Below, piece after piece: positions 774 through 55,588 of a stretch of 64,000 nucleotides of DNA (its first letter is position 1; each line of letters starts with the position of its first letter). This DNA is from Octopus vulgaris (taxonomy: Eukaryota). A program made the translations under genes and the position numbers. The stretch spans positions 58,776,001-58,840,000 of the forward strand of contig OX597819.1 of assembly GCA_951406725.2 (NCBI GenBank), in the 5' to 3' direction. Below the pieces are notes generated by a model. The model did no database searches, was not told the DNA's origin, and worked only from the letters and a program-made list of their open reading frames with translations.

Positions 774-55588
<54,815 letters not shown>

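What the first reader, a model, noticed from the sequence alone, without database searches (positions are those of the whole stretch)
6725..6727. Single Gly->Pro imperfection at position 598 of the major triple helix
Seen: exon 29 reads ...[12 protein letters not shown]...; the obligatory Gly codon is CCA, at least two substitutions from GGN, so it is unlikely to be a single-base error. It is the only broken triplet among the 278 in the window, and counting from GAM (exon 8) it is residue 598. Recalled, to be verified: abalone (Haliotis discus) fibrillar pro-alpha chains have Ala or Ser replacing Gly at position 598. Pro cannot donate the interchain NH hydrogen bond and is far more disruptive than Ala/Ser. 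Inference: a conserved mollusc-lineage hinge in the fibril monomer, taken further here; it may affect fibril flexibility or protease sensitivity. A-to-I editing of CCA would only be synonymous, so it cannot restore Gly.
Basis: partly seen in the sequence, partly recalled or inferred. Interest (0 to 1): 0.75.

Follow-up and report, generated by a model that had tools for sequence, protein, structure and literature searches.

The report
Proline breaks octopus collagen's triple helix
One chain of a fibre-forming collagen, likely of an octopus, has proline where glycine is required at helix position 598, and its neighbouring sister gene has alanine at the same spot, so the assembled molecule likely carries an inherited soft joint in all three strands, at a position where a glycine change is a listed human disease variant.

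Summary
Codon CCA (6727-6725, minus strand) puts Pro at the Gly position of triplet 200 of a 338-triplet, 1014-residue helix; it is the only break. All 8 public runs laid, from 8 studies, 5 of them spliced, read the same exon letters, so this is no assembly error, edit or skipped exon. New here: the second clade A gene, tail-to-tail 136 kb away, has Gly->Ala (APK) at exactly the same triplet, also its only break (chance about 1 in 336). The clade B gene has none. The break therefore predates the gene duplication, and no trimer of these two chains has a Gly there. Position 598 equals 601 in vertebrate numbering (cross-link lysines at 84/927), where human COL1A1 p.Gly779Ser is a listed variant. 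Pro is one base from Ala or Ser, so no double jump is needed. The abalone Ala/Ser-598 report, and a tube-worm case that would make this wider than molluscs, are recalled only; neither papers nor sequences could be retrieved. Best reading: an old, conserved local soft joint in the fibril gap zone; Pro is the new variant. Function is untested.

The parts
6725..6727 (-). CCA codon: Pro at the Gly position, helix residue 598 (601 in vertebrate alpha1(I) numbering)
   Evidence: same letters in 8 of 8 runs laid
6716..6736 (-). Interrupted stretch G-P-K-P-E-K-G: five residues between two glycines; the paralogue has G-A-P-A-P-K-G; Lys after the break and Arg two triplets on are shared
6611..6826 (-). 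216-nt helix exon (residues 565-636), 24 triplets; the paralogue has an exon of the same size and phase
   Evidence: Pfam Collagen E 7.4e-12; spliced whole in 5 contigs
774..28005 (-). 28 exons of the major triple helix inside the window (residues 1-834); 9 more helix exons, the joining exon and the C-propeptide lie beyond position 1 (L002, L003)
25040..25042 (-). Helical cross-link Lys84 (87 in vertebrate numbering), in GPK-GHR; fixes the register together with Lys927 in L002
   Evidence: positions 87 and 930 from the PMC5120351 supplement
31965..32063 (-). N-telopeptide exon (99 nt), contains a Lys, ends just before GAM
   Evidence: AG/GT ends; not checked against transcripts
33545..34966 (-). 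Two exons of the minor triple helix (34966-34913, 33613-33545)
39973..40119 (-). First part of the VWC domain of the N-propeptide (clade A hallmark)
   Evidence: Pfam VWC E 3.4e-09, 37.3 bits, over cut-off; splice sites
7695..7697 (-). Last codon of the preceding exon (Y position, residue 564); reads Ala, Pro or Ser in different runs
   Evidence: loose ends; genome GCT

Best explanation
This collagen chain has Pro in place of Gly at helix residue 598 and its sister clade A chain has Ala at the same triplet, so any trimer of the two lacks Gly there in all three strands, which likely makes one short, locally loosened joint in an otherwise rigid rod, likely inherited from before the two genes duplicated. 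Shown: the codon, its transcription, the matching break in the paralogue, the shared register, no break in the clade B chain. Inferred: (1) the two chains co-assemble; (2) the ancestral residue was small (Ala or Ser) and this chain took one further base change to Pro; (3) both inserts (PKPEK, APAPK) are Pro-rich, so each strand would stay extended while core packing and the Gly N-H to carbonyl hydrogen bond are lost over a few residues, giving a bulge or hinge and not a loop; the helix would resume on the Pro-rich GPP/GPK side; (4) 601 is 133 residues into the third 234-residue D period, in the gap zone, where a fibril has room for a bulge; (5) the joint would add bending compliance to fibrils of soft, muscular tissue.
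For: One break in 338 triplets of this chain and one in 336 examined of the paralogue, both at 598; chance of coincidence about 1 in 336. The register is secure: X/Y identity 193 of 672 (0.287) at offset 0 against mean 0.128, sd 0.016, maximum 0.172 for 60 other offsets; 34 intron positions shared of 37 and 35; cross-link Lys at 84 and 927 in both. The clade B gene shows no true break (which allowed up to 2 non-Gly triplets per exon; 336 all-Gly triplets in 48 exons). No reversion to Gly in either chain, although the paralogue's GCC is one base from GGC. Exon invariant in 8 of 8 runs under 7 organism labels. Neither break sits in a mild context: Pro itself here, and Ala followed by Pro in the paralogue, the context that bioRxiv 10.64898/2026.06.01.729402 (abstract and introduction read) finds most destabilising for Gly->Ser. 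Reviews say one substituted chain delays folding in vertebrate fibrillar collagens (PMC9320522, passages), and COL1A1 p.Gly779Ser is listed (PMC11663852, table row; the 178-residue offset to helix 601 is established knowledge), so a fixed break here is not expected to be invisible to selection.
Against: No measurement of structure, flexibility or stability exists here. The flanks are no better conserved between the chains than the helix at large (6 of 22 X/Y positions; 62% of windows score as high), which does not suggest a shared binding surface and fits drift. Co-assembly is not shown: both C-propeptides lack Cys2 and Cys3, so the cysteine code (PMC6181919, passages) predicts nothing about composition. 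No orthologue spanning the site from another species group was obtained, so age and spread rest on the paralogue and on recall. The gap-zone placement uses vertebrate fibril geometry.
Confidence: 0.5

Rival explanations
1. Tolerated scar: an ancestral Gly loss became fixed at a forgiving gap-zone site, after which the residue drifts (Ala, Ser, Pro) with no function.
For: Different residues in the two chains; flanks not especially conserved; Pro is one base from Ala or Ser; the gap zone leaves room (established knowledge).
Against: Every other triplet (337 and 335) keeps Gly, and neither chain has reverted although GCC is one base from GGC. If one strand could be mended singly with benefit, reversion would be expected.
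Confidence: 0.25
2. The break is a controlled opening for proteases or a binding partner, standing in for the vertebrate collagenase site.
For: At vertebrate position 775 (collagenase site Gly-Ile/Leu, recalled) this chain has GRQ and the paralogue GPQ, so neither has that site. Gly substitutions raise local protease sensitivity in model collagens (PMC10765305, passages). Lys and Arg just after the break are shared by both chains.
Against: Pro-rich inserts are poor substrates for many proteases (established knowledge); no cleavage data; flanks not especially conserved.
Confidence: 0.12
3. Chain-counting device: with no Cys2/Cys3 disulfides, the Pro makes trimers with two or three copies of this chain fold badly, so that only (Ala-chain)2(Pro-chain)1 passes quality control.
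For: Both C-propeptides lack Cys2 and Cys3; the breaks are in register; Pro has no N-H and should be least compatible with the core (established chemistry).
Against: PMC2852846 (passages) notes that some invertebrate chains lack both cysteines and that Cys2 is not needed for association; composition is usually set at the C-propeptide before folding reaches 598; by recall the abalone has Ser, not Pro, and still makes two-chain collagen.
Confidence: 0.1
4. Assembly error, private mutation, RNA editing or exon skipping that removes or repairs the site.
For: None found. Contigs drop rare variants, so a minor form is not excluded.
Against: 8 of 8 runs laid, 8 studies, show the same exon letters; 5 spliced contigs hold the whole 216-nt exon; the paralogue is broken at the same triplet.
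Confidence: 0.01

Closest known systems
Abalone (Haliotis discus) Hdcol 1alpha and 2alpha (Yoneda et al. 1999; recalled, not seen; accessions BAA75668/BAA75669 are listed in PMC5120351)
   Same: By recall: 1014-residue helices, Ala and Ser for Gly at 598, six Cys in each C-propeptide, and a 1alpha chain with no minor helix. Here: 1014 residues, break at 598 in both chains, Cys2 and Cys3 absent, and the Ala-bearing paralogue shows no minor-helix exon, so it looks like 1alpha and this gene like 2alpha.
   Different: Pro instead of Ser in the 2alpha-like chain. The comparison could not be made on sequences.
Riftia pachyptila fibril-forming collagen (Mann et al. 1992; recalled, not seen; AAB24972, 1027 aa, is listed in PMC2443231)
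   Same: By recall a single Gly->Ala imperfection at about the same helix position.
   Different: An annelid; Ala, not Pro; equivalence of position not tested here.
Vertebrate clade A fibrillar collagens (types I, II, III) and their disease Gly substitutions
   Same: VWC + minor helix + major helix + COLFI, 54/45-multiple exons, Lys87/Lys930 spacing; the same position is a listed variant site, COL1A1 p.Gly779Ser.
   Different: The vertebrate helix is unbroken and Gly changes are pathogenic; here the break is fixed and sits in both chains. Pro cannot arise from a Gly codon by one base change.
Collagens XXIV and XXVII (clade C)
   Same: Fibrillar collagens with natural Gly substitutions in the major helix (PMC2852846, passage).
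   Different: 997-residue helix with two Gly substitutions and a four-residue imperfection, no minor helix; this chain is clade A with one in-register substitution. Their break positions could not be compared.

Membership tests
Clade A fibrillar collagen | Major triple helix of about 1014 residues | tested here: met
   1014 residues, 338 triplets
Clade A fibrillar collagen | C-terminal COLFI propeptide | tested here: met
   PF01410 over cut-off on 4 exons; 54.9 bits on one exon
Clade A fibrillar collagen | VWC domain and minor helix in the N-propeptide | tested here: met
   VWC 37.3 bits; minor-helix exons 34966-34913 and 33613-33545
Clade A fibrillar collagen | Phase-0 helix exons built from 54- and 45-nt units; cross-link lysines 843 residues apart | tested here: met
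   Exon sizes 45-243 (36 and 72 near the C end); Lys84 and Lys927
Clade A fibrillar collagen | Gly at every third residue without exception (vertebrate rule) | tested here: not met
   337 of 338; this is the finding. Natural exceptions exist in the family, so it does not remove the chain from the fibrillar collagens
Clade A fibrillar collagen | Placement in clade A on a tree | not tested
   No usable reference set was retrieved; assignment rests on the VWC module and exon pattern
Position-598 imperfection of abalone and tube-worm collagens | Single non-Gly at residue 598 of a 1014-residue helix, in both chains | tested here: met
   Both chains of this genome; the reference feature itself is recalled
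Position-598 imperfection of abalone and tube-worm collagens | Alignment in register with the abalone or Riftia sequence | not testable with these tools
   No such sequence returned; papers not held
Position-598 imperfection of abalone and tube-worm collagens | Small residue (Ala or Ser) at the site | tested here: not met
   Pro in this chain; Ala in the paralogue
Disulfide-coded homo- or heterotrimer (cysteine code) | Cys2 and/or Cys3 in the C-propeptide | tested here: not met
   Both absent in both clade A chains, read from exon translations

The most novel reading that the evidence does not exclude
The main body collagen of this animal has a built-in three-strand joint in which one strand has Pro, the residue least able to sit in a triple-helix core, and the joint is kept by selection: it sets the molecule's bending point in the fibril gap zone and, with no C-propeptide disulfides available, limits the Pro chain to one copy per trimer. 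It would be a natural, abundant, healthy counterpart of a brittle-bone-type lesion at the homologous residue.
Probability: 0.2. Interest if true: 0.75.

Novelty: new variant of a known kind. Interest (0 to 1): 0.45.

Why it matters
Gly at every third residue is treated as an absolute rule for fibril-forming collagens, and single changes cause human disease. Here a transcribed, apparently fixed Gly->Pro lies opposite Gly->Ala in the sister chain, at the position homologous to a listed COL1A1 variant. It gives a natural test of how much a fibrillar triple helix tolerates, of why position matters, and of what the old 598 break does, a question that can be put directly with short peptides and single-molecule imaging of an easily obtained collagen. 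The break itself is probably long known from abalone (recalled); the Pro and the in-register paralogue in a cephalopod were not found in print.

Tried and rejected
Orthologues spanning the site were not obtained. Three protein searches gave unrelated collagens (120 of 1021 listed, none with a full clade A helix), nothing or one mite fragment. The representative search returned C-propeptide fragments up to 328 aa, and cluster look-ups on 20 of them gave nothing longer than 386 aa. P0302 looks like an orthologue of this chain from another animal but covers only the C-terminal end. The metagenome scan gave 8 loci, none a clade A chain over this site. The Atlas did not hold the query. The PDB search showed rat type I chains but no readable alignment at the site. 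Break positions of collagens XXIV/XXVII could not be compared, because the retrieved models were fragmentary. Ten literature searches gave no passage on the 598 break or on Gly->Pro; the term 'Gly to Pro' had 0 occurrences in the 20 papers listed. The library lacks most subscription papers, eight look-ups were not held, and the squid proteomics supplement, which may hold cuttlefish ColAa peptides over this site, could not be read. Rejected: a micro-intron or frameshift (the exon is whole in 5 spliced contigs); an apparent break 'VSM' in the clade B gene, which was a mis-set donor and vanished; three extra breaks, from an exon end set one base off and corrected. No further collagen gene was seen between the two clade A genes (1 kb not scanned) or in two genome searches (lower bounds). 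No structure or complex was predicted: Gly-X-Y chains would pass by likeness to solved helices.

Full report
Setting. The window is G000:C6:58776001-58840000 of a 2.8-Gb, 227-contig animal genome. An earlier AI note on this genome calls it an octopus (unchecked). The window holds, on the minus strand, most of one fibrillar collagen gene: a VWC exon (Pfam 37.3 bits), two minor-helix exons, a telopeptide exon and 28 exons of the major helix. Nine more helix exons, the joining exon and the COLFI C-propeptide lie just beyond position 1.

The observation. Bases 6727-6725 read CCA, the first codon of the 12th triplet of a 216-nt exon with AG/GT ends. It is the only non-Gly among 278 triplet-first codons in the window and among 338 in the whole 1014-residue helix. 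Counting from GAM gives 598. The cross-link lysines fall at 84 and 927; vertebrate helical cross-link lysines are 87 and 930 (PMC5120351, supplement read), so the site is 601 in that numbering.

Is it real? Of 24 runs listed I laid 8, from 8 studies and under 7 organism labels. All 8 cover the codon and none shows another letter in the exon. Five are spliced contigs that skip the 197-nt intron and hold the whole exon; three are genomic. These are contigs, so rare variants are invisible; RNA status is partly guessed but the splice joints show it; two genomic runs may be the source of this DNA. Assembly error, recoding and exon skipping are rejected for the major form.

The partner chain. A COLFI search of the genome found three genes (the same three; lower bounds). 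One lies on the plus strand of the same contig, tail-to-tail, about 136 kb away. It has a VWC domain, no minor-helix exon between VWC and telopeptide, and a helix that starts in the same register. Its 216-nt exon has GCC (Ala) at the 12th triplet, APK. This is residue 598 and its only break among 336 triplets examined. The register is not in doubt: X/Y identity is 193 of 672 at offset 0 against a mean of 0.128 (sd 0.016, maximum 0.172) for 60 other offsets, 34 intron positions are shared of 37 and 35, and both chains have Lys at 84 and 927. Two independent single breaks would coincide about once in 336. The third gene, on C10, with a clade B type exon pattern and no VWC test done, shows no true break: the scan that allowed breaks flagged only a mis-set donor, and 336 all-Gly triplets were recovered in 48 exons. 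So the break is specific to the two clade A chains and most simply predates their duplication. CCA is one base from GCA (Ala) and from TCA (Ser), so Pro needs one step from a known state.

How it most likely works. Any trimer of these two chains has no Gly at this triplet. Each strand carries five residues between glycines (PKPEK; APAPK), both Pro-rich, followed by Lys-Gly-x-Arg in both. From established chemistry, Pro suits the extended backbone of a collagen strand but cannot pack in the core or donate the N-H bond, so I infer a short bulge or hinge with the helix resuming on either side. Position 601 is 133 residues into the third D period, which in vertebrate fibril geometry is the gap zone. 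Neither chain has a mild context: the paralogue's Ala is followed by Pro, the context found most destabilising for Gly->Ser in bioRxiv 10.64898/2026.06.01.729402 (abstract and introduction read). I give 0.5 to a conserved soft joint, 0.25 to a tolerated scar, 0.12 to a protease or ligand opening (neither chain has Gly-Ile/Leu at vertebrate 775; site recalled), and 0.1 to chain counting. Against function: the flanks are no better conserved than average (6 of 22; 62% of windows as high), and nothing physical was measured. Co-assembly is inferred only: both C-propeptides lack Cys2 and Cys3, so the cysteine code (PMC6181919, passages) is silent, and PMC2852846 (passages) notes that this lack occurs in some invertebrate chains.

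What is known. I recall, without having seen the papers, that both abalone chains have Ala or Ser at 598 of 1014-residue helices, with six C-propeptide cysteines and one chain lacking the minor helix, and that the Riftia chain has one Gly->Ala at a similar place. The first set of features matches what I measured point by point, with Pro in the chain that corresponds to the Ser-bearing one. Neither papers nor sequences could be retrieved, so this remains recall. Reviews treat the Gly repeat as strict in fibrillar collagens (PMC10765305, passages; PMC9320522, passages), with natural exceptions in types XXIV and XXVII. Human COL1A1 p.Gly779Ser, in exon 33_34, is a listed variant (PMC11663852, table row); with the usual 178-residue offset it is helix 601. 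PMC2443231, PMC12403961, PMC11766948 and PMC7024357 were seen as passages and say nothing on the break. Ten searches found no account of a Pro at this site or of the break in cephalopods; the library lacks most subscription papers, and one supplement that may bear on it was unreadable.

Verdict. Observation confirmed; interpretation partly supported. A new variant (Pro) of a probably known conserved break, strengthened by the in-register Ala of the sister gene. Interest 0.45; 0.75 if the joint proves to be selected and to set bending or chain number (probability 0.2).

Noticed in passing
window 7695-7697 (last codon of exon 7748-7695): The Y residue 564 reads Ala (genome, X10, X18), Pro (X16) or Ser (X17, X11) in the loose ends of spliced contigs: three letters at one base, while the next two exons are invariant. 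Not an A-to-I pattern; alleles or sister-species differences.
   Followed up: partly
G000:C6:58585891-58622858 (+), loci L016-L019: Second clade A fibrillar collagen gene, tail-to-tail with this one, about 136 kb apart. No minor-helix exon found; its C-terminal cross-link Lys927 is followed by GWT where this chain has GHR; its helix appears one triplet shorter at the C end.
   Followed up: yes
G000:C10:17654686-17762420 (-), loci L026-L035, L055: Third fibrillar collagen gene with mostly 54/45-nt exons (clade B type) and no Gly break found.
   Followed up: partly
L003:7167-7301 and 6346-6459; L016:3713-3847 and 4777-4905; L026: The C-propeptides of both clade A chains lack Cys2 and Cys3; the C10 chain's translation shows none at these places either.
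   Followed up: partly
L003:5100-5460 (-): Two similar stretches of about 170 nt in tandem inside the C-propeptide region; one frame reads like a Trp-bearing coding exon, which may be a duplicated or alternative exon.
   Followed up: no
L004:355-5163 (-): Long reading frames that look like a non-LTR retrotransposon reverse transcriptase, with a partial second copy, just downstream of the gene.
   Followed up: no
window 6617-6646 and 6689-6709: A second collagen transcript in runs X17 and X18 matches short pieces of the exon; its loose ends suggest a different, interrupted collagen.
   Followed up: no
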